Shown here: in pieces, positions 27,741 to 37,300 of the stretch
Layout: each line of letters starts with the position of its first letter
Numbering within the stretch: the stretch's first letter is position 1
DNA from: Spizellomyces punctatus DAOM BR117
Lineage: Eukaryota
Assembly: GCA_000182565.2 (NCBI GenBank)
Contig: KQ257466.1
DNA length: 64,000 nt
Direction: 5' to 3' (one strand)
Program-made: the position numbers and the translations under genes
Notes under the pieces: generated by a model
Databases searched by the model: none
What the model saw: the letters and a program-made list of their open reading frames with translations, nothing else
What the model was told of the DNA's origin: nothing

Positions 27741-27922
27741 AACTAGTTGTTTGTTGAGATGAATCATTGGAGATATGTTATCTCCGTCGTCTATTCAATG
27801 TAGTCATCAGAGATAGCCATTCTTTACCAACTAGTTGACTGATGGGATGAATGCATTTTTCTCATTGGAGATATGTCTCCGTCATTGATTCAATATAGTC
27901 GTCAGTAATAGTCATCTTTAAC
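27741..27922. repeat. Degenerate tandem duplication, two copies of about 90 bp
   Basis: Copies start at 27741 and 27829, each reading aactagttg..gatgaat..cattggagatatg(tta)tctccgtc..attcaat.tagtc.tcag..atag.cat(t)cttta. Confidence 0.8.
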
Positions 27923-28402
27923 ACCGGATTAACCAGGAGGGAGTCCGAAGACACTTCTCAGGGCCCGAGACGCATATCTGCTTTCAACTTTATTTCATTA
28001 CGCTTAAGCTAATTCCTTAAACCCGTGGGAATTGGTGATGTGTGAAGGGCAACCCGACTTTATGGATCTTACAGAATTATTGAAAAAAATTCCTTCATCT
28101 AACCCCATCACAAACCATATCCTCTGCATCAGGAAGGGAGCAAATACTGTGACCTTTTCAAACAGTCGGCAGTGTTGGCAACCGGCGAAAGCATGCAGAA
28201 GAATCCGATTTATGCATGAGCGGTGTGACTCACAGGATGATGCACTCACGTGATCTGAAGCTAGTCACTTCGCGTAAAAAAAGGCTGGGTGCAAAAGCCT
28301 GCTTTGGCGAGTAAGTGGTTGAGATAGTAGCAGACTCATCAGCTTTTAGGCCTTTACAATAGAACACTTGTCGCAGCAAAACCAAAAAGCACGATCTTGC
28401 AC

Positions 28403-31117
28403 ATGGACGATCCCGGCTTGGCAGCTAACAAAGAGCAAGTGTGGCAGAATGTCTCAAATGCCGTCTCCCGTGACTGGGGTCTCTACGAAACTGTCTCTGT
28501 GAACCTTGATAAAAACTTGTTGGAGTATATAGTGAACGAGCGGTGGCCTACAATTCAGGGAGCTGAGCATAGTGCTTTGCGTGCAGGCCTGGTGCTGGCG
28601 GTTCTCATACCATCGCGGAAAAAGTTGATGTTGGATGCCAAACCTGCTGCTGAGAAGGTGAGTGGATGATTTACCTGGGCTATTGTGCGCAGGTCCTAGC
28701 GTTGTGGGTTCGGCGATCAGAACTCAGACTGTCGACTGGTCTGTCAGTCGACCCCACGTCTCCCGCTGTCTCCGTTGCCTGCCGCCATCCCAGCTGGTTA
28801 CCGCCGCAAGCTTTTTCAAGGGGCATGGGGGTGTTGTGGAAGGTTGACACATAGGGACTGTGTTCATCGGACTATAGACATCTATATACATGTAGAACGT
28901 AAGGCGGGTTTTTTATGTGGGGGAAGGATGTTCACACGCATGTTGAGGAGAGAGAACCGATTCAGTGGACCAAAAGTCCCAGCTTCAAAAGCATTAGAGA
29001 CAAACTGCCAAAGTGATGGACAGGTGCTTGCTTGCTCAGTTGATGATTGGTGTCAATATCGTATCTTTTAAGAACACTATTGCCCACTCTCAACATCATG
29101 GCGGCGCTGTTCGCAATTCTGGCCATGTCTGCAAATGCTTTCCCCACCCCACCTAGTTCTTGCATAAATGTCTCCTGCATTTGCCACAGCGTCCGCTATG
29201 TAGCCTGTATCTGTATGTCTGTATGTCCTATATGGTGCGAGTATCTGACCTCGGCATTTCGCCATTCCGCCATTCCATTTTCACATGCAGTTGGTCGCCT
29301 TAGCCCAACAAGACGAGGACGAATATGTCCGCGCCCTGGGAACGCTGGGCGGAAATCGAGTCAACGGAGGAAAGTTTGACGTTGAAATTGACAGGATGGG
29401 GCCTACATTCGTCGATGCACACAAGAAGCTGAAAGAGTCATGTAAGTGTAGCGACCCATCGATTTAGCGTTGTCAGCAGATGGAACTAATATTTATGTCC
29501 TCTTGCCATTGATATCAAGTGAGCTCCCTCGACTTCAAGTTTTATCCCCGTGAATTCTCGTATCTGAATGACCGAGTCATTCAGTCCATCAAAAGAAGCG
29601 GTTCGGACCACGTCGAGAAACCTGGCCTTAACATTAAGGCCGGGCACGGTGTGCCTTCCTTGTTGGAACGCCTGAAGAGCTATGGATTCAAAAGAGAACC
29701 AGGTATCACAATGTGGTTCTATCTCGCAGAGTTCCGCGGACGTTCAAAGCAATGCGATATCTCACACATCGTTGAATCTGTATAGTGCCCTCACCAGTGA
29801 GCCCCGCAACCCCAATGGAGATTCCGAAAGTCTCTTCACCCACTACCATCTCTCCAACCACTGCAACACCGAGTACACCAGCATGGATGCTTAGAAAAGG
29901 CGCTGGTGGTTTGAAAAACTCTGCATATGGCACAAGACGTGAGTATACCATATGGTCATGCGCTGCCAACGGCCTTTCTGAAATCTCTTATAGGCACAAG
30001 TGCCGGAACCAGCGGTCTCCGCAAAGGCTTCGAACGTGAACGCAAAGTTGCCATCCTTGGTTTGGACGAAATGCGAAGGGTAGAAGACGCAAGAAAAGCG
30101 GAGAAGGACGGTGAGAAAATCTGTTCTCGATGATGTCCGACCTGGTGGATTTATCTCCCATTGTCGTCTACAGAAAAGAAGGCAGAAAAGGAACGCAAAC
30201 AACAGGAAAAACAACGGGAAAAACTGGAACGTGAGCGACGAAAAGAGGAAGAGATCCAGAAAAAGATCGAAGAGGAGGAAGAAAAGTTGGCTGAAGAGAG
30301 GAAATTAGCTGTCGAAGAGGAGCAGCGGGCATTGGAAGATAAGGAATCAGCAGTCGAAGAAGCAAAGCAGGCTGCTTTGAATGGGCAGTCGGACACAAAT
30401 CCCATTGACGACATGAATACTATGAATGCCCACGAGTCAGTCGAGGAGCGGCATACAGGGCGTACGTAGCTAGTTTCATTGTAGTGGATATATGGTCACA
30501 TTTAACATACTCTCGCTCTCGTGCAGGCTTGAAGAGACGCCTCAGTCTAAGTGATTCTGAAGGTAACATACCATCTGCTGAACGTTTTTTCTGCCTTGGT
30601 CTACCTGATACTAACATCAGCACACAGATCCCGACAAGCGACACAAAACGACAGCTAGACGGACCACACTGACACCTCCTCCAATTTTATTCGATCCATA
30701 CCTTACTTCCTCTCGAGTCCAGTCTCCTGAAACTGTTTTAGGTCCAGTGAAATCAGAATCCCCGGATCGTGCTGATACTGAAGAGTCAGCGCAGACGCCA
30801 GAGCGACAATCTGCGGAACAGACGGCGGCAGTCATATTAGGTGATGCTGATGTGAGCGTGGAACACCGGGAGAAGCTGGTGGCCTTCTTACTGGGACAGT
30901 ACGGTAAGCGCGATATTCCTCTCTTCGTATGTTGCATTGAGATGGCCTGAATCATCCACCAACAGAACCCCATGCTGAGATATATCGCATTTCACTGGGT
31001 GTGGCAAATATACCGGGCAAAAGCGGTCGTCTGGTACCAAAGGAGGTCATAATCGAATTGGATTATGCTGCCGCGAAATGGTCAAAACGGGCAAAACCGA
31101 TCAAGTCAGCAAAGTAG
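28403..31117 (+). CDS. NELFA: Negative elongation factor subunit A (NELF-A) homologue
   Basis: Nine exons reconstructed, first intron 28658-29290. Matches to metazoan NELF-A: LVALAQQDEDEYVRALG ~ IIQLASLDSDPWVLMVA; GKFDVEIDRMGPTFVDAHKKLKE ~ GSLNLELEEQNPNVQDILGELRE; FYPREFSYLN ~ MLPLECQYLN; RERKVAILGLDE ~ KERGVKLLDISE; C-terminal DVSVEHREKLVAFLLG..IIELDYAAAKWSK ~ KVTRPEKALILGFMAG..VFEMNYATGQWTR. Confidence 0.8.
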
Positions 31118-31395
31118 TGAATTGTGGCCGTTGTGATTGCAAAAGTGCGTTTATCAACGTATGATACCCCATTCTGTGTAGCTATAGCTTTGGTCGCAAT
31201 TTTGACAATAGCCATTGATGTGAAGCATAAACAGCAGCGCTCACTGTGACTTTGTAGACGTGATTCATGGCTTGAATTTAAGAGTATATCCTACTCGGGA
31301 CACTCCATATGTATGATCGTTGCAGCATTTTAGCATATACAGTTTCATGGCAGTCAGAAAAAATGTTATCTTTGTGCACATCTGACCAATACTGC

Positions 31396-34300
31396 TCATG
31401 TCAATGTGTCAATCTCAGAGCGAATTTCCTGCATCACATCAATACAATCCAGCTCAAAGAATGTTCCTCTGCGCTTTAGCTCCTCCACCAACCCCGTCAG
31501 GAGCTCAAATCCTTCCGCAGTTGACTTGTCCCCAAGCGCGCTCAAACACCCCAAGAGCGGCTCACTAAGAAAGATGACACATTTGCTTCGTGCTCTGCTG
31601 AGGGCCACATTGAGGAGGTTGCGGGAGAAGAGAAATGTGGTTTCCGATGATGGATGTGAAGACGCGTAGAGGATTAGAGTGACATCTGATTCCATCCCTT
31701 GCGATTTGTGTATTGTAAATATTTGAGGTGTGGGCGTTTCTGGAAGGAGTTGTTGCAACGGCAGTCGCTTTTTGTGGTGTGTTATTAGGTGAAGGATGGA
31801 CATTGGTCGGGAATGAGGAAGTCGACGAAGAAGGTTGGTTACATTCGCTGCTAATGCAGCTTCAGCCGATTCAATTAACGAACTCTTCCGAGTCCTGTCT
31901 CTGCAGATTGTAAAGTACGTGAGCAGTATACTACTAAATTGGCCAAGGAGATCTTCTCTCACCTCAAGATCACCATAACCATTGGTTTCCGTCTATCCAC
32001 GATGGTCGCGAAGACTGGTACTAGACTTTTGGCAGTTCGGATGTGTTCTTGGAATTCGGGCCGGGAGATGGGATTTCGTCCAATTATTTGCCCGATATTC
32101 TGCCGGGCAATTTCAGATGTGGCTGGTGCATAACTGGAGTACCCGACGAATCTACGAAGAATGCTCGCAGAGACCTGAATTGAAGAATAGCGTAAACATG
32201 GTACAGATAGTGAGAGTAGGTGGTTGTTTGTTACCTTATTCAATCTCCAGGTATCAACCAAACTAACCGGTACAACCCCTTCCCCGCCACGTCTAACGAT
32301 CCAGTTGAACAGGCTTTCACCCAACCAACCTTCGTCTCGTTTCGCCCCGAGTCGTCCTTTTGCCAGCGTACCAATCTGCAAATGATCCCCCACCATTAAA
32401 ACGGACCCGTTACGAGGGCACCACGGCAAAAGCTGCAATGCTACGCTCGTCTCAAGAATGGGTAAAAGAGATGCCTCTTCAATGCAAAGCATTACATCCG
32501 CTTCTGACATGTATGGGAGGACATGTGCAACCTTTTGCAATGCCCAGACGGTGCCTGCAATGACGACGTGGCGTTTGGCTTTCAGCATATTTTGCAAGGG
32601 TGTGTGTGAACATTTTCGGCTGCACTGACAGCGTTTTGAAGTTGTTGTGTAGTATATTATTTTGCCTTCAAAAAGACGAGGCGTGGATTCGGAAGTTGTC
32701 AGCCGAATGATGCGAGCTCCAATATCGGGACTGTTTGTGTGCTGAAGCATTTTTTGGATGACAGTGTCAATTGCGCTATGAGTTTGAGCGGCAAGTAGAA
32801 TAATCTGGGATCTGGTCGGGCGATGGACGATAGCTTGATGTATTCTTGAGAGGATGAGAGCACCAAGGAAGAAGCTTTTACCTACGAGATAGAAATCAGG
32901 CACAATTTGTGTGGGTGGAAAGTCTAGCTCAGATCTTACCTGTTCCAGGAGGTCCAATGAGAAGCTGCACCGGACGACTCTGGATTGCTTTTATGATAAC
33001 TTTGTGCTGTCGAGTCAAAGTAATTTTCTTCCCGGCATCCACAGCCAAACAGCCATCCTCATCTATGGGCCACCAACCATTCATTGGAATACCATTCGGT
33101 TTTGACGAGGGCAAAACGTCACCATTCACAAGTCGCATGACAACTGGGAGAGTTTGCTCATCATCGCTTCGTCCAATGTTTTGTGTTACAACATCGGCAT
33201 CCAAAGCCTGAAGATGATTGAGGGCTGGCTTGAGAGTTTGATTGGTATAGCGTCGGAAAAGCAGATACTGAGTGGAGACTGAAAGATTTGTTTGCGCATC
33301 AAAATTGAGAATGACATGTTCACTTGTTACATTGTCTTCGAAGTGAATGGTTGCAACGCAAAGATATGATGCATGGCCACGATCTGCTGCCCGCTTTGCC
33401 TGATACCGGTTGAATGCATCACACCTAAACATTGAGGAATATGAGAGATCCCGATGTAGAAGCAGTTCGGTTCGAAGTTGCTGATCATCCTCGGGTATCA
33501 CAAAATACTGGGTAAAGGCTGCTGGCTCGGTGCTGATTTGGTCGTCTATCGCTTCGGACATTATCTGGCATTGCCACGATTTGCCATTGTCTAGTGCTTT
33601 AATGGGCAAGACTACCATGGGACTGACAGCAAGCAGCCGCTCTTGTGAAAGCTCCTGCATATCTCGAGTAGCGTCCATGAGCCGCGAATACGCTAGCTGA
33701 GATAGCAAAGGTGTGCGAATCTGTAGTGGGGGTACGAAAGTGAAGGGCTTTTCTTGAATGGGTAGGAGGAGAGGCGTTGTAACCTTGTACATGTTCTGAA
33801 TGACGGCGAAGGTGCTGTTGATATAAGTGAATAGTTCGCTGTCCACTCTTCGTTCCATCTCCTCGATGTTACCATTTTGGCTTATTCGGAGATTATGGAT
33901 GTCAACGGCCAGCGTTCCTCGCGGGTCCTCGCGGACAAAGGCGGAGACATCAACAATGTCAGCCCCAGTCATAATATGATGCAACTGCGATATCGTAGAA
34001 ACGGGAAAAGGCAGCGCAAACATTGTGCGAGCCTCTTCCACAGCACACAGAGCACCTGTATGTACTCTTGTTGGATCGGCATGGCCTTCCTTCATGGCGG
34101 CCCCTATAGCTTCATCCACCACAATTGTTCTCAGCATGGTCTCCGCTGCTATTTTTACTTGACTATTAGTACCACCTTTGGCAAGTACGTCCACTAACAT
34201 CACGCCGAAGTTTCCCAGTTCCTCGGCTTCGCCTACCCAAACAGTGAGACTTTTTCCAGCGGTTTCTGCTGCTGACATGATACTGTGCAGTACGTTTATA

Positions 34301-37300
34301 TAGGCTTCAACCGTTGTGGGCGTTCCCACAGGGTAGACTTTCCAAGAACTTAGCGACGTCCCCGCAAAAATTCCATATCCGAGGAGGAGAGGGGTGTGGT
34401 CAATGGGGTCTTGGGAAATGCTGATAATCAGGGTTTGGTCTGAGCGGCAAGGAATCCGGAGGGAAGGTCGATTGAGATGAATGAGACGACTGGATTTAAC
34501 CGACAAAGCCTGTGGAACGTAAGGAACAAGTGTATTCCAAATTGAAGACAAAGAATCCTCACCCGTAATGCAGGTTTGTCAATTACTCGGCTGGCTTTTT
34601 CGTTTGGACTTCCCAAATCTTCAATATCTCGAATTCCTAATTCCCCACACAGGTCTTTTACCCGTCTATTCACCCCAGGGACAATCATCAAATCCATCTT
34701 CTCTTTTGCTTCGTTATAGCATTCATTCAAGTACTTGCAATCAGCACAATCCGGTGTGAGGTGGAAATCGGCTTCACCTTCAGGTGAAAGAATACTGGGA
34801 AGCTCATTGGTAAAAAAAGAGCGGATGCCCAAAGTGATATTTGGAATAGAAAAGGGAATCCGTTCACCGGGTTCCAATGGATAGTTGACTCCACTAGGTT
34901 GTCGGTCAGAACCTGGGAGCCATATTTGCCCAACTTGATCGATTACTATCTGGTGATTCTTTGCAAGCTGCAACATCGATTGTAGTATCATGCTATAAAG
35001 CGAGACTTGTATTTTCTGCGAAGGAAAAGTGCGAGGTGAATCCGTTGTCGATAATCCAACAAAATTGCTTCCTACCTGGTATGCTTTGATCCCAGTACTG
35101 AACTTTGCATCGATTATCTGAAGCACAGTAGTACCATTTTCAGCCCTTGTCAAGTGGAGAAAGTCTGGCTTAATGGTCTTGATACGTGGCTGCAAGCGGG
35201 CTCCCGATCTTGCCAAGCCAATCATGGCATTCACCTCGACCGGCACTTGAATGTTCGGCTCGTAAATATAGTGGCCGCTAGGGACACGTTCTATCAGAGC
35301 AATAAGTTGCTCTGCTGAGCCGACCTTTTCGCGAGATGAGCACATATAGCCGCTCTTCTCGATCCACTCCGTTATTCGCCGCTCCCAGTCATCTCCGCTG
35401 CGCTTTAAGAGTGAAGAAATCGGAGTATCGTTTCCATTCTGGAATGCGACCAATGGCGTTGCAAGGCGATGAAGGAGTCGAGGACAGCGCGTAATAAAGT
35501 AGCTCGCAATCTTTGTTGCACTCAAAGAGTGAGTTTCTGGGAGAAGCGGCCCGAATGTACCGGTGACATCATGCAAACTTAGGCTCGTCAAAGGTAGGCT
35601 GGAGGGTGTTGGCTGACCAGGTAAATTTGACGGAGTGGGCGAATACGACAATGAGCACCCTGTCATATTTTCTTGCGACAGCGCACCAATAGTGGTTCGT
35701 TCGGAATCTTGGGTAGGACAGCTCATGGGAGTGGCGATATGAAGCTTTTGCGAGACGGCGGCACCATCCTCTTCTTCATGATCACTCAATTCCAAATCCT
35801 CCGTAACCTCAGCAAAGATACACCTTGGTTGGCTCCAAGACACGCTCCTCGATTCCATAAACTCCTCCATCAATGTACGCCATGTCATTGTGGTCGGTGC
35901 ACCAAAGAACACGATATGGAGTGTGTACTTGGCTCTAGTCAGCGCTACATACACCCTTCTTCTCTCCTCCTCGCCTGACACCCCAATTTTACCGTTCTTA
36001 AGCTTTAAGAGAACAAACACATGGCCACGCTCTAAACCCTTGGCACCATGGATGGTTGAAATGAGGGTTTCTGCGAGAACATTGGTTGTCTCCGCTGTGC
36101 AAAAATCTGTGAAACGAGAGCACTCATCGTTACGGTAAGCGAGGATGGCGATGTCCGATGATGGAACGTTTTCCATTGCTACTAGTTTAGAAGCGGTTTT
36201 GTATGTGTGCCGGCACGCTTCGTCGAGCTAAAATTCATAATTATAAACAAATGGTTGATAAGTGATCTTTAACTTGAACCACCCATTGTACCGCTTACTG
36301 TAGTTTCGTAACAGACTCCAATGTCGCTACAGTTCATCTCTCTGCTGCCAGCAGGGACGCAAGATCTGAAGGCCCCTTTGTTTTCCTTTTGCCGTCGGGA
36401 CGCCAACGCAATTACCGAAGAATTGAAATCAATGATGCTCTGAATTGTACGATAGTTCGACAAGAGGGTGACTTCATTGAGATGATGACGGTCAAATCGT
36501 TTCTTGAATCTCTCCATAACCTCTGGAGCTGCACCACGAAAATGATAAATCGTCTGATCATCGTCTCCGACGACTGTGATTCGGTAAGGCCTGGGCGATT
36601 TTTCGATACCTGGGGAGCGGCTTCCGGATATCATATGTTTAATAAACATCTGGCGTCCAATCATACCGATGTTAGTTTCCAGACCATTTGTCGAGTACCA
36701 AACAAATTACCTCTTGCCATCTATCAACATCCTGAAATTCATCCACGAGAAGGTAATACTGGTCTCGGAAGTGTTCCGCCAGCTGCGGAGTCGAGCTAAG
36801 ATGCTTCACCACCCGTATCAATCTCGCTCGATGTGTACATATTCCCTCCCTCCATAGTTCATGTTCAATCTCCGTGATTCTCTCGGCATACGGCCGCAAC
36901 GCATCACATAGATGAGCAGTGCGATAAAGCGAGCTCAGTGCGTTCTCCAAAGACGTCCTGGACGCCTCGATATCGGGATTTGATTCATAGAGTCGGTCCA
37001 ATAGCTTTTTAATATATTCCTCGTCTGGAATGACAGTGTTTGGAGGATCTTCGATGAACTGGCGGCAATAAAATGAGGCGAGAGAATCGATGGTGCGAAC
37101 AAACGGCAAATTAATAGGTCTGTGATACCCCGCCAGTGAACTTATACGAGTCTTCAAGGTTTCCGCTGCATTTTTTGTAAAGGTGATGACAATCAGTCTG
37201 TGGGGAGAGATCTGTTGGGACAAGAGGAACAGGATCCTGCCAACTAAAGTAGCGGTTTTCCCTGTGCCTGGACTGCCAAGTTATGAGAAACATCTTCAAT

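What the first reader, a model, noticed from the sequence alone, without database searches (positions are those of the whole stretch)
28403..31117. NELF-A homologue in a fungus
Seen: fragments that look unrelated in the ORF track splice into one protein matching three separate conserved regions of metazoan NELF-A in order: the N-terminal NELF-C-binding region (LAQQDEDEYV, FYPREFSYLN), the tentacle motif (RERKVAILGLDE) and the C-terminal domain (EKLVAFLLG..IELDYAAAKW). Known: NELF establishes promoter-proximal Pol II pausing and is absent from budding and fission yeast. Inference: this early-diverging fungus retains an animal-like pausing module that yeasts lack.
Basis: partly seen in the sequence, partly recalled or inferred. 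Interest (0 to 1): 0.78.

Follow-up and report, generated by a model that had tools for sequence, protein, structure and literature searches.

The report
Chytrid fungus gene for NELF-A
This nine-exon gene of the chytrid fungus Spizellomyces punctatus encodes a divergent but full-length relative of animal NELF-A, a protein that helps hold RNA polymerase II near gene starts, which shows that yeasts lost this factor rather than animals inventing it.

Summary
Window 28403-31117 (+) splices through eight GT..AG introns into a 536-aa protein. It is letter for letter the public record SPPG_07703 of Spizellomyces punctatus DAOM BR117, named only 'uncharacterized protein'.

On its own the protein is sub-threshold for NELF-A: Pfam NELF-A_N 15.4 bits against a cut-off of 27, and PDB 5L3X_A at E 0.11. 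Profiles built from its fungal relatives hit human NELF-A decisively:
- 17 chytrid sequences: E 9.5e-19.
- 27 fungal sequences: E 1.7e-26.
- C-terminal domain alone: E 7.2e-7.

These are the N-terminal NELF-C-binding domain, a mid-'tentacle' basic motif, and the C-terminal domain that a 2026 preprint reports as binding INTS12. The AlphaFold model finds NELF-A as its best five solved structures.

What is not shown:
- NELF-B, NELF-C/D or pausing in this fungus (no genome was held).
- The exon 1-exon 2 splice by RNA (reads too thin).

Related fungal proteins already carry the automatic NELF-A_N name, and a 2024 preprint mentions non-animal NELF-A homologues. I file it as a new member of a known kind, of moderate interest.

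The parts
28403..28657 (+). Exon 1 (residues 1-85): the first helices of the NELF-A N-terminal domain
   Evidence: Starts with ATG and has a GTGAGT donor at 28658. 97% identical to the separately annotated 136-aa P0004 of S. 'palustris'. Contiguous with the exon 2 product in P0003. The model aligns with NELF-A from residue 10.
28658..29290 (+). Intron 1, 633 nt (the other seven are 55-83 nt). It holds an unexplained pile of + strand RNA reads at about 28766-29098.
   Evidence: GTGAGT...CAG. Depth 10-21 in run X10. No Rfam match. No repeat or A-run. Fold z-score +2.08. No Pfam match for its 123-aa ORF.
29291..29441 (+). Exon 2 (residues 86-136): core of the N-terminal domain (LAQQDEDEYV)
29520..29702 (+). 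Exon 3 (residues 136-197): end of the N-terminal domain (FYPREFSYLN)
29786..29938 (+). Exon 4 (residues 197-248): Ser/Pro/Thr-rich disordered linker, the start of the 'tentacle'
   Evidence: pLDDT below 50 for residues 198-269
29994..30110 (+). Exon 5 (residues 248-287). It holds the conserved mid-tentacle motif GLRKGFERERKVAILGLDEMRRV, encoded at 30014-30082.
   Evidence: Aligned with high posterior probability to human NELF-A at about residues 250-270. Invariant between Spizellomyces and Phlyctochytrium.
30174..30461 (+). Exon 6 (residues 287-383): Lys/Glu-rich long helix. The helix spans residues 271-356, encoded at 30062-30382 across intron 5.
   Evidence: Helix 271-356 in the model. Only low-complexity Pfam matches.
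30527..30562 (+). Exon 7 (residues 383-395), disordered
30628..30903 (+). Exon 8 (residues 395-487): disordered stretch, then the two helices of the C-terminal domain (EKLVAFLLGQY)
30966..31117 (+). Exon 9 (residues 487-536 plus stop): the three-stranded sheet of the C-terminal domain (IELDYAAAKW). The whole domain, residues 445-531, is encoded at 30777-31099.
   Evidence: Profile of 12 fungal C-termini against human NELF-A residues 440-524: E 7.2e-7. pLDDT 94-97. Atlas structure match to an arthropod NELF-A cluster, TM 0.66 over residues 441-536.
31118..31300 (+). 3' untranslated end of the transcript (approximate)
   Evidence: + strand read depth 19-32 at 30986-31207, falling to 7 by 31318

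Best explanation
The locus is the Spizellomyces punctatus orthologue of NELF-A (gene SPPG_07703, so far unnamed).

Shown here. The protein keeps the whole architecture of animal NELF-A:
- an N-terminal helical domain (about residues 10-192) homologous in sequence and fold to the part of human NELF-A that binds NELF-C;
- a long disordered 'tentacle' carrying a conserved basic motif (residues 255-277) and a Lys/Glu-rich helix (271-356);
- a small alpha/beta C-terminal domain (445-531) homologous to the human NELF-A CTD (431-528).
One such protein turns up per species in many chytrids, and also in Bifiguratus (Mucoromycota) and Basidiobolus.

Inferred, not shown. The N-terminal domain docks on a chytrid NELF-C/D, which with NELF-B forms a NELF core on early-elongating RNA polymerase II. 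The tentacle modules contact the polymerase or other factors.

My odds:
- orthology to NELF-A: about 0.93;
- works inside a NELF-like complex on Pol II in this fungus: about 0.65;
- produces a focal, animal-like pause: about 0.3.

The C-terminal domain probably does not use the human arginine-in-PHD-pocket contact with INTS12, because that arginine is absent at the aligned position.
For: Gene model equals public protein P0002.

Single-sequence hints agree on family and register:
- Pfam PF23553 NELF-A_N: E 0.018, residues 57-158 against profile positions 43-144 of 146.
- PDB 5l3x_A NELF-A was the best hit: E 0.11, same residues.

Exhaustive HMMER search with the N-terminal profile:
- 27 proteins at E<=1e-3.
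- 23 were looked up. 19 carry names, all of them fungi; 4 are unnamed.
- Three pass Pfam's NELF-A_N cut-off of 27 bits: Blyttiomyces helicus 29.9, Bifiguratus 41.8, Basidiobolus 45.2. UniRef names these three 'NELF-A N-terminal domain-containing protein'.
- P0002 is tied to them by BLASTP E 2e-35 (Blyttiomyces). A single collinear alignment, residues 44-534 against 40-491, gives E 2e-17 (Basidiobolus).

Profiles against the PDB:
- 27 sequences: human NELF-A 6gml_U at E 1.7e-26, stretches 38-289 and 351-524.
- 17 chytrids only: E 9.5e-19.
- C-terminus only: E 7.2e-7.

Fold:
- Foldseek's top 5 of the PDB are all NELF-A (E 5.4e-5 to 1.5e-3); the next hit is at 0.39.
- VIA-align gives Z 12.8 and 12.7 with 166-170 residues aligned of 177-183; the next hit is at 9.8.

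Atlas feature search: the top three clusters carry NELF-A_N for both the N-terminal and the C-terminal part.

The gene is transcribed: + strand reads at the 3' end at depth 19-32.

Human CTD function comes from bioRxiv 10.64898/2026.06.30.735463 (abstract and section 8 read).
Against: - P0002 alone is below Pfam's cut-off (15.4 against 27 bits). With the two-sequence profile, NELF-A was not even the best PDB hit (E 0.17, rank 6).
- The VIA and Foldseek superpositions of the N-terminal domain have high rmsd (11-12 A) for the full-length matches. The sub-domain arrangement in the model therefore differs from the crystal structure.
- No NELF-B, NELF-C/D or NELF-E could be sought in this genome.
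- No RNA joint was seen for any intron. About as many + strand reads pile up inside intron 1 as at the gene's 3' end, so a transcript ending in intron 1 may exist. S. 'palustris' annotators split the gene there.
- The R453 equivalent is V472, and 0 of 12 fungal sequences have R or K in that column.
- Chivu et al. found the HDAg-like domain only in animals and Capsaspora.
Confidence: 0.88

Rival explanations
1. It descends from NELF-A but has been repurposed. The chytrid protein would work without a NELF complex, for instance as a free-standing Pol II or chromatin-associated adaptor, because partner subunits are missing or do not bind it.
For: - No partner subunit was shown.
- The INTS12-binding arginine is absent in 0 of 12 fungal sequences.
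- Identity to human is very low, 16-21% in the structural alignments.
Against: - The NELF-C-binding domain is the best conserved part across chytrids, Mucoromycota, Basidiobolus and human. That is what a retained partner would produce.
- NELF-B and NELF-C/D are reported as widespread in eukaryotes.
Confidence: 0.2
2. The main product lacks exon 1. Transcripts from the upstream promoter would end inside intron 1, and the NELF-A-like protein would start at the in-frame ATG at 29285, as in the 453-aa S. 'palustris' model. That product would be truncated, lacking the first helices of the N-terminal domain.
For: - A pile of + strand reads at 28766-29098 has the same shape and height as the 3'-end pile.
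- The S. 'palustris' annotation splits the locus into g04457 (136 aa) and g04458 (453 aa, starting MQLV...).
- Intron 1 is about 8-11 times longer than the other seven.
Against: - In the 17-sequence chytrid alignment, 16 rows carry the exon-1-equivalent N-terminus contiguous with the rest; only P0013 lacks it.
- Human NELF-A aligns without a gap across the junction.
- The model packs exon 1 and exon 2 helices into one domain with pLDDT 85-97.
- Exon 1 is 97% identical between the two Spizellomyces.
- An intronic poly(A) site can coexist with the full-length mRNA.
Confidence: 0.12
3. Chance resemblance: an unrelated helical-repeat protein with low-complexity regions.
For: - The single-sequence matches are sub-threshold.
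- Helical repeats give middling structural Z scores to many folds.
Against: - Three separate regions match in order, at E values of 1e-19 to 1e-26 for the whole and 7e-7 for the C-terminal domain alone.
- A gap of four or more orders of magnitude separates these from the next hits.
Confidence: 0.01

Closest known systems
Human NELF-A (NELFA/WHSC2): PDB 5L3X chain A, 6GML chain U and related entries
   Same: - Similar length: 536 against 528 aa.
- N-terminal helical domain: model residues 10-192 against chain residues 6-176, Z 12.8.
- Mid-tentacle basic motif aligned to human residues about 250-270.
- C-terminal alpha/beta domain aligned to human residues 440-524.
- Long disordered linker between these modules.
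   Different: - Only 16-21% identity in the structural alignments.
- An 86-residue Lys/Glu-rich helix follows the motif.
- Human R453, the key to INTS12 PHD binding, aligns with V472.
- The region matching the human HDAg-like stretch beyond about residue 150 is a poorly aligned Ser/Pro/Thr-rich linker.
Fungal members of Pfam PF23553 (NELF-A_N): Basidiobolus ranarum KAK9712703.1, Bifiguratus adelaidae OZJ01793.1, Blyttiomyces helicus RKO90362.1
   Same: Same family and architecture. P0002 aligns end to end with the Basidiobolus protein (E 2e-17) and over the N-terminal domain with the Blyttiomyces protein (E 2e-35).
   Different: Those three pass Pfam's cut-off and carry the automatic UniRef name. 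The Spizellomyces protein does not pass (15.4 bits) and is filed as 'uncharacterized'.
Hepatitis delta antigen (the HDAg-like region of animal NELF-A)
   Same: Nothing was shown here beyond the fact that the aligned stretch of human NELF-A (residues 38-289) spans the region that the literature calls HDAg-like.
   Different: - No Pfam delta-antigen match at E<=10.
- Chivu et al. detected this domain only in animals and Capsaspora.
- The PROSITE profile that defines it is not among my tools.

Membership tests
NELF-A | N-terminal helical domain homologous to the NELF-C-binding domain of NELF-A (Pfam PF23553) | tested here: met
   Alone the protein is sub-threshold: 15.4 bits against a cut-off of 27, E 0.018. 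It is met through the family:
- chytrid-only profile against human NELF-A: first stretch 51.7 bits, i-E 6.8e-13;
- 3 relatives pass Pfam's cut-off;
- P0002 is tied to them at E 2e-35 and 2e-17.
NELF-A | Fold of the N-terminal domain as in 5L3X chain A / 6GML chain U | tested here: met
   Foldseek ranks 1-5 are all NELF-A, E 5.4e-5 to 1.5e-3, TM by target 0.55-0.62; the next hit is at E 0.39. VIA-align gives Z 12.8 and 12.7 with 166-170 residues aligned but rmsd 11-12 A; the next hit is at Z 9.8.
NELF-A | Conserved basic motif in the tentacle (human residues about 250-270) | tested here: met
   It lies inside the first aligned stretch of both profiles, with top posterior probabilities. It was not tested as a stand-alone profile.
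NELF-A | C-terminal domain (human CTD 431-528) | tested here: met
   Profile of 12 fungal C-termini against human residues 440-524: E 7.2e-7, 32.2 bits; next hit 0.86. Atlas structure match to an arthropod NELF-A cluster: TM 0.66 over residues 441-536. No solved structure of this domain exists to compare with (best Z 3.1).
NELF-A | HDAg-like domain (PROSITE-type profile over human residues 89-248) | not testable with these tools
   The PROSITE profile is not available. There is no Pfam delta-antigen hit. Human residues 38-289 are spanned by the alignment, but the part after about residue 150 is weak.
NELF-A | Partner subunits NELF-C/D and NELF-B encoded in the same genome, with physical association | not testable with these tools
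   No genome is held.
NELF-A | Binds Pol II-DSIF and slows early elongation | not testable with these tools
   This needs biochemistry or PRO-seq.
NELF-A CTD as INTS12 PHD-finger ligand (Blears et al. preprint 2026) | Arginine equivalent to human R453 that inserts into the PHD pocket | tested here: not met
   By the alignment, R453 falls on the column after the S/T of 'VSVEH', which is V472 in P0002. None of the 12 fungal sequences has R or K there. Six of 12 have an R three positions later, aligned with human K456. The alignment at this helix cap could be off by a few residues.

The most novel reading that the evidence does not exclude
Chytrids, and other early-branching fungi, run a working NELF built from A, B and C/D without E. 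It slows Pol II near promoters. The full NELF-A architecture, including the tentacle motif and the C-terminal microdomain only recognised in humans in 2026, would then date at least to the common ancestor of animals and fungi and would have been lost in the yeasts studied so far. That would move the origin of NELF-A-assisted pausing well before animals. It would also give a fungus in which to study it (S. punctatus is reported to be transformable; recalled from memory, not from a call).
Probability: 0.35. Interest if true: 0.75.

Novelty: new member of a known kind. Interest (0 to 1): 0.42.

Why it matters
NELF is usually presented as an animal device for pausing RNA polymerase II. The one evolutionary survey I could read calls NELF-A 'more recently derived' than NELF-B and NELF-C/D.

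This locus and its relatives show that a full-length NELF-A already existed in the common ancestor of fungi and animals. It has the partner-binding domain, the tentacle motif and the C-terminal microdomain. The yeasts therefore lost it.

It also shows that the newly described human C-terminal domain is ancient, while its INTS12-binding arginine is not conserved in position. That hints at an older, different partner.

Practically, it names an unnamed gene in a chytrid model and gives a concrete handle for asking what NELF did before animals.

The gain is modest. Pfam and UniRef already label sister proteins in three other fungi, and non-animal NELF-A homologues are mentioned in print.

Tried and rejected
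- Exon-by-exon Pfam scan: only low-complexity matches.
- Word-index protein searches found only 1, 2 and 3 close relatives. The third, with the 27-sequence alignment, was swamped by Lys/Glu-rich words.
- Two-sequence N-terminal profile against the PDB: NELF-A only at E 0.17, below an endoglucanase. This was superseded by the deeper profiles.
- RNA check of the splice sites:
  - Runs X4-X6 turned out to be genomic-type contigs that include the introns.
  - Run X10 gave 397 reads, mostly at 3' ends, and no joint at any of the 8 introns. This is evidence neither way.
- Intron 1 as host of a known RNA, repeat or protein: no Rfam match at gathering or at E<=1, no repeat or A-run, no unusual fold stability (z +2.08), no Pfam match.
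- Earlier notes of this scan: nothing on this genome. One note concerns a Naegleria NELF-B.
- Literature:
  - 0 papers for NELF with fungi and chytrid, with Spizellomyces or with Dikarya; 0 for 'negative elongation factor' with chytrid.
  - The two broader searches listed nothing relevant.
  - Supplements are closed. Supplemental Table 1 and Figs S5-S6 of Chivu et al. may already list chytrid NELF subunits.
- Fold of the C-terminal domain against 48,161 solved chains: best Z 3.1. No solved counterpart was found, which does not prove a new fold.
- Complex prediction was not used, since no partner sequence from this organism was available.
Full report
**1. What is at the locus**

I read window 27800-31700 and its stop-to-stop frames. 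From these I built a nine-exon model on the + strand:
- Exons: 28403-28657, 29291-29441, 29520-29702, 29786-29938, 29994-30110, 30174-30461, 30527-30562, 30628-30903, 30966-31117.
- All eight introns are GT..AG. Intron 1 is 633 nt; the others are 55-83 nt.
- The 1611-nt reading frame gives a 536-aa protein.

A database search with exon 8 found a 90%-identity cluster of two proteins. One member is P0002 = SPPG_07703 / XP_016604911.1 of Spizellomyces punctatus DAOM BR117, named 'uncharacterized protein'. It is identical to my model. The organism is a chytrid (Chytridiomycota, Spizellomycetales).

**2. The protein alone is only suggestive of NELF-A**

- Exon pieces gave no Pfam match beyond low complexity.
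- The whole protein gave Pfam PF23553 'NELF-A N-terminal domain' at E 0.018 and 15.4 bits, below the cut-off of 27. The match covers residues 57-158 against profile positions 43-144 of 146.
- Against PDB sequences the best hit was NELF-A of 5L3X, at E 0.11 over the same residues.
- A language-model look-up of residues 1-200 put three NELF-A_N-bearing clusters first, at scores 0.90, 0.89 and 0.87.
- A two-sequence profile did not improve the PDB result: NELF-A at E 0.17, rank 6.

**3. The family makes it decisive**

I ran an exhaustive HMMER search of 1.84 billion representatives with the N-terminal profile of Spizellomyces plus Phlyctochytrium. It found 27 proteins at E<=1e-3.
- I looked up 23 of them. 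19 carry names and 4 are unnamed metagenome or run assemblies. The 4 shortest were not looked up.
- All 19 named ones are fungi.
- By my knowledge of the genera, 17 are chytrids: Phlyctochytrium, Spizellomyces (x2), Blyttiomyces (x2), Borealophlyctis, Quaeritorhiza, Thoreauomyces, Entophlyctis, Polychytrium, Batrachochytrium (x2), Nowakowskiella, Geranomyces, Fimicolochytrium, Rhizophlyctis and Gaertneriomyces.
- The other two are Bifiguratus adelaidae (Mucoromycota) and Basidiobolus ranarum (Basidiobolomycota).

I scanned P0002 and 20 of the longer hits one by one against Pfam, 21 proteins in all.
- 10 list NELF-A_N at the E cut-offs used (10 for P0002, 1 for the others).
- 3 pass its curated cut-off: Blyttiomyces helicus 29.9 bits, Bifiguratus 41.8, Basidiobolus 45.2.
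- UniRef already calls those three 'NELF-A N-terminal domain-containing protein'.
- P0002 aligns with the Blyttiomyces protein at BLASTP E 2e-35.
- It aligns with the Basidiobolus protein in one collinear alignment from residue 44 to 534, at E 2e-17.

**4. Profiles against solved structures**

- The 27-sequence full-length alignment hits human NELF-A (6gml_U) at E 1.7e-26 (96.6 bits). There are two stretches, human residues 38-289 and 351-524. The next unrelated chain is at 9.4e-4.
- As a stricter control I used 17 chytrid sequences, none of which passes Pfam's cut-off individually. The result was E 9.5e-19 (71 bits), with stretches 50-289 (51.7 bits) and 353-524 (19.7 bits). The next unrelated hit is CAF-1 p150 at 3e-4, which is low-complexity similarity.
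Fungal 'kGl.rESKvkilDieE' lies over the human 'RKERGVKLLDISELD' with top posterior probabilities.
- A profile of only the last ~90 residues of 12 fungal proteins hits human NELF-A residues 440-524 at E 7.2e-7. The next hit is at 0.86.

**5. Structure**

AlphaFold2 with the 27-sequence alignment gives three ordered parts separated by disorder:
- a confident N-terminal helical domain (pLDDT 85-97 over most of residues 30-140);
- a long helix at 271-356;
- a confident C-terminal domain at 445-531, made of two helices and three strands (pLDDT 94-97).

Comparison with solved structures:
- Foldseek against the PDB returns NELF-A chains as ranks 1-5 (5l3x_A at E 5.4e-5 with TM by target 0.62, then 6gml_U, 9j0n_U, 8uhd_U, 8uha_U). 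Rank 6 is at E 0.39.
- VIA-align over 48,161 representative chains puts 6gml_U (Z 12.8, 166 of 183 residues) and 5l3x_A (Z 12.7, 170 of 177) first, ahead of generic helical repeats at Z 9.8 or less. The rmsd is 11-12 A, so the two halves of the domain are set differently in the model.
- The C-terminal domain folded alone (pLDDT 85.9) has no solved counterpart; the best Z is 3.1.
- In the Atlas, the C-terminal domain superposes on the C-terminus of an arthropod NELF-A cluster, TM 0.66 over residues 441-536.

**6. What the C-terminal domain is**

[quoted passage not shown] I read its abstract, section 8 and search passages.
- The domain binds the PHD finger of Integrator subunit INTS12 through arginine 453.
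- The R453A change mimics loss of NELF.
- The paper compares only human, Xenopus and Drosophila.

The chytrid domain is the homologue of this CTD. By the alignment, R453 corresponds to V472 of the Spizellomyces protein. None of the 12 fungal sequences has R or K in that column. Six have an arginine three residues later, aligned with human K456. The domain is therefore old, but this particular contact is probably not conserved, allowing for a possible small alignment shift at the helix cap.

**7. Gene model and RNA**

The only RNA run of the species with raw reads (X10) gave 397 reads, mostly at 3' ends. It showed no joint at any of the eight introns, at exon depths of about 0-2. The splice 28657->29291 is neither confirmed nor refuted by RNA.

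Homology supports it:
- Phlyctochytrium and 16 of the 17 rows of the chytrid alignment (all but P0013) carry the exon-1-equivalent N-terminus contiguously.
- Human NELF-A aligns ungapped across residue 85|86.
- Helices from exons 1 and 2 form one domain in the model.

Against a simple picture:
- + strand reads pile up inside intron 1 (28766-29098, depth 10-21), with the same shape as the pile at the gene's 3' end (30986-31207, depth 19-32).
- I infer that + strand reads are sense here. The convergent neighbour's reads lie on the - strand.
- In S. 'palustris' the locus is annotated as two genes: g04457 (136 aa, exon 1 part) and g04458 (453 aa, starting at the in-frame ATG that lies at 29285 here).
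- The intron has no Rfam match, repeat, A-run, unusual fold or Pfam-bearing ORF.

A transcript ending in intron 1, or an unknown RNA, remains possible.

**8. What is not shown**

No genome is held for this window, and I had no tool-given query for NELF-B, NELF-C/D, NELF-E, HEXIM or INTS12.

The one survey I could read is Chivu et al., bioRxiv 10.1101/2023.02.19.529146 (passages). It reports that:
- NELF-B and NELF-C/D are widespread in eukaryotes and lost in S. cerevisiae, S. pombe, C. elegans and land plants;
- the HDAg-like domain occurs only in animals and Capsaspora;
- strong evidence for NELF-E was found only in metazoans.

The authors used BLASTP with human queries against EukProt v3, a set that includes S. 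punctatus (P0002 carries an EukProt id). Given the weak pairwise similarity seen here, that method may have missed this protein.

Full-text searches gave 0 papers for NELF with fungi and chytrid, with Spizellomyces or with Dikarya, and 0 for 'negative elongation factor' with chytrid.

**9. Verdict**

- It is a new member of a known family, not a new kind of thing. Sister proteins in three other fungi already carry the automatic NELF-A_N name, and non-animal NELF-A homologues are mentioned in print.
- What this analysis adds is that the whole NELF-A architecture, including the mid-tentacle motif and the CTD described only in 2026, is shared by chytrids, a mucoromycote, Basidiobolus and humans.
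- It also adds that the INTS12 'key' arginine is not shared.
- Function in a NELF complex and in pausing is inference, at odds of about 0.65 and 0.3.

Noticed in passing
window 28766-29098 (+), inside intron 1: + strand RNA reads pile up to depth 10-21, as high as at the gene's own 3' end. Exon 1 just upstream has depth about 1. There is no Rfam family, repeat, A-run, stable fold or Pfam ORF. This could be an intronic poly(A) site or an unannotated RNA.
   Followed up: partly
P0004 and P0001 (Spizellomyces sp. 'palustris' g04457 and g04458, one contig): The orthologous gene is annotated as two neighbouring genes, split at the long first intron. The second model starts at the ATG just before the exon 2 acceptor.
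   Followed up: partly
P0019 (Blyttiomyces sp. JEL0837, 874 aa): A model named 'Microsomal glutathione S-transferase 3' carries a MAPEG domain (residues 15-139, E 1e-24) followed by the NELF-A-like N-terminal domain (residues 164-321). This is probably two genes fused by the annotation.
   Followed up: no
window 31396-36227 (-): The convergent neighbour is a run of long ORFs with superfamily-1 helicase C-terminal domains. AAA_12/UvrD_C_2 appears at 31399-31992 and again at 34431-36227, and AAA_11 is weak at 31962-32990. This is either one large or two tandem helicase genes. Its - strand reads overlap the NELF-A gene's 3' end region (31208-31400).
   Followed up: partly
Atlas clusters: Clusters nearest to the N- and C-terminal parts include NELF-A_N-bearing groups whose commonest phyla are Chlorophyta (38% of members with the domain) and Bacillariophyta (17%). 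This hints that NELF-A-like proteins reach beyond opisthokonts. These are leads only.
   Followed up: no
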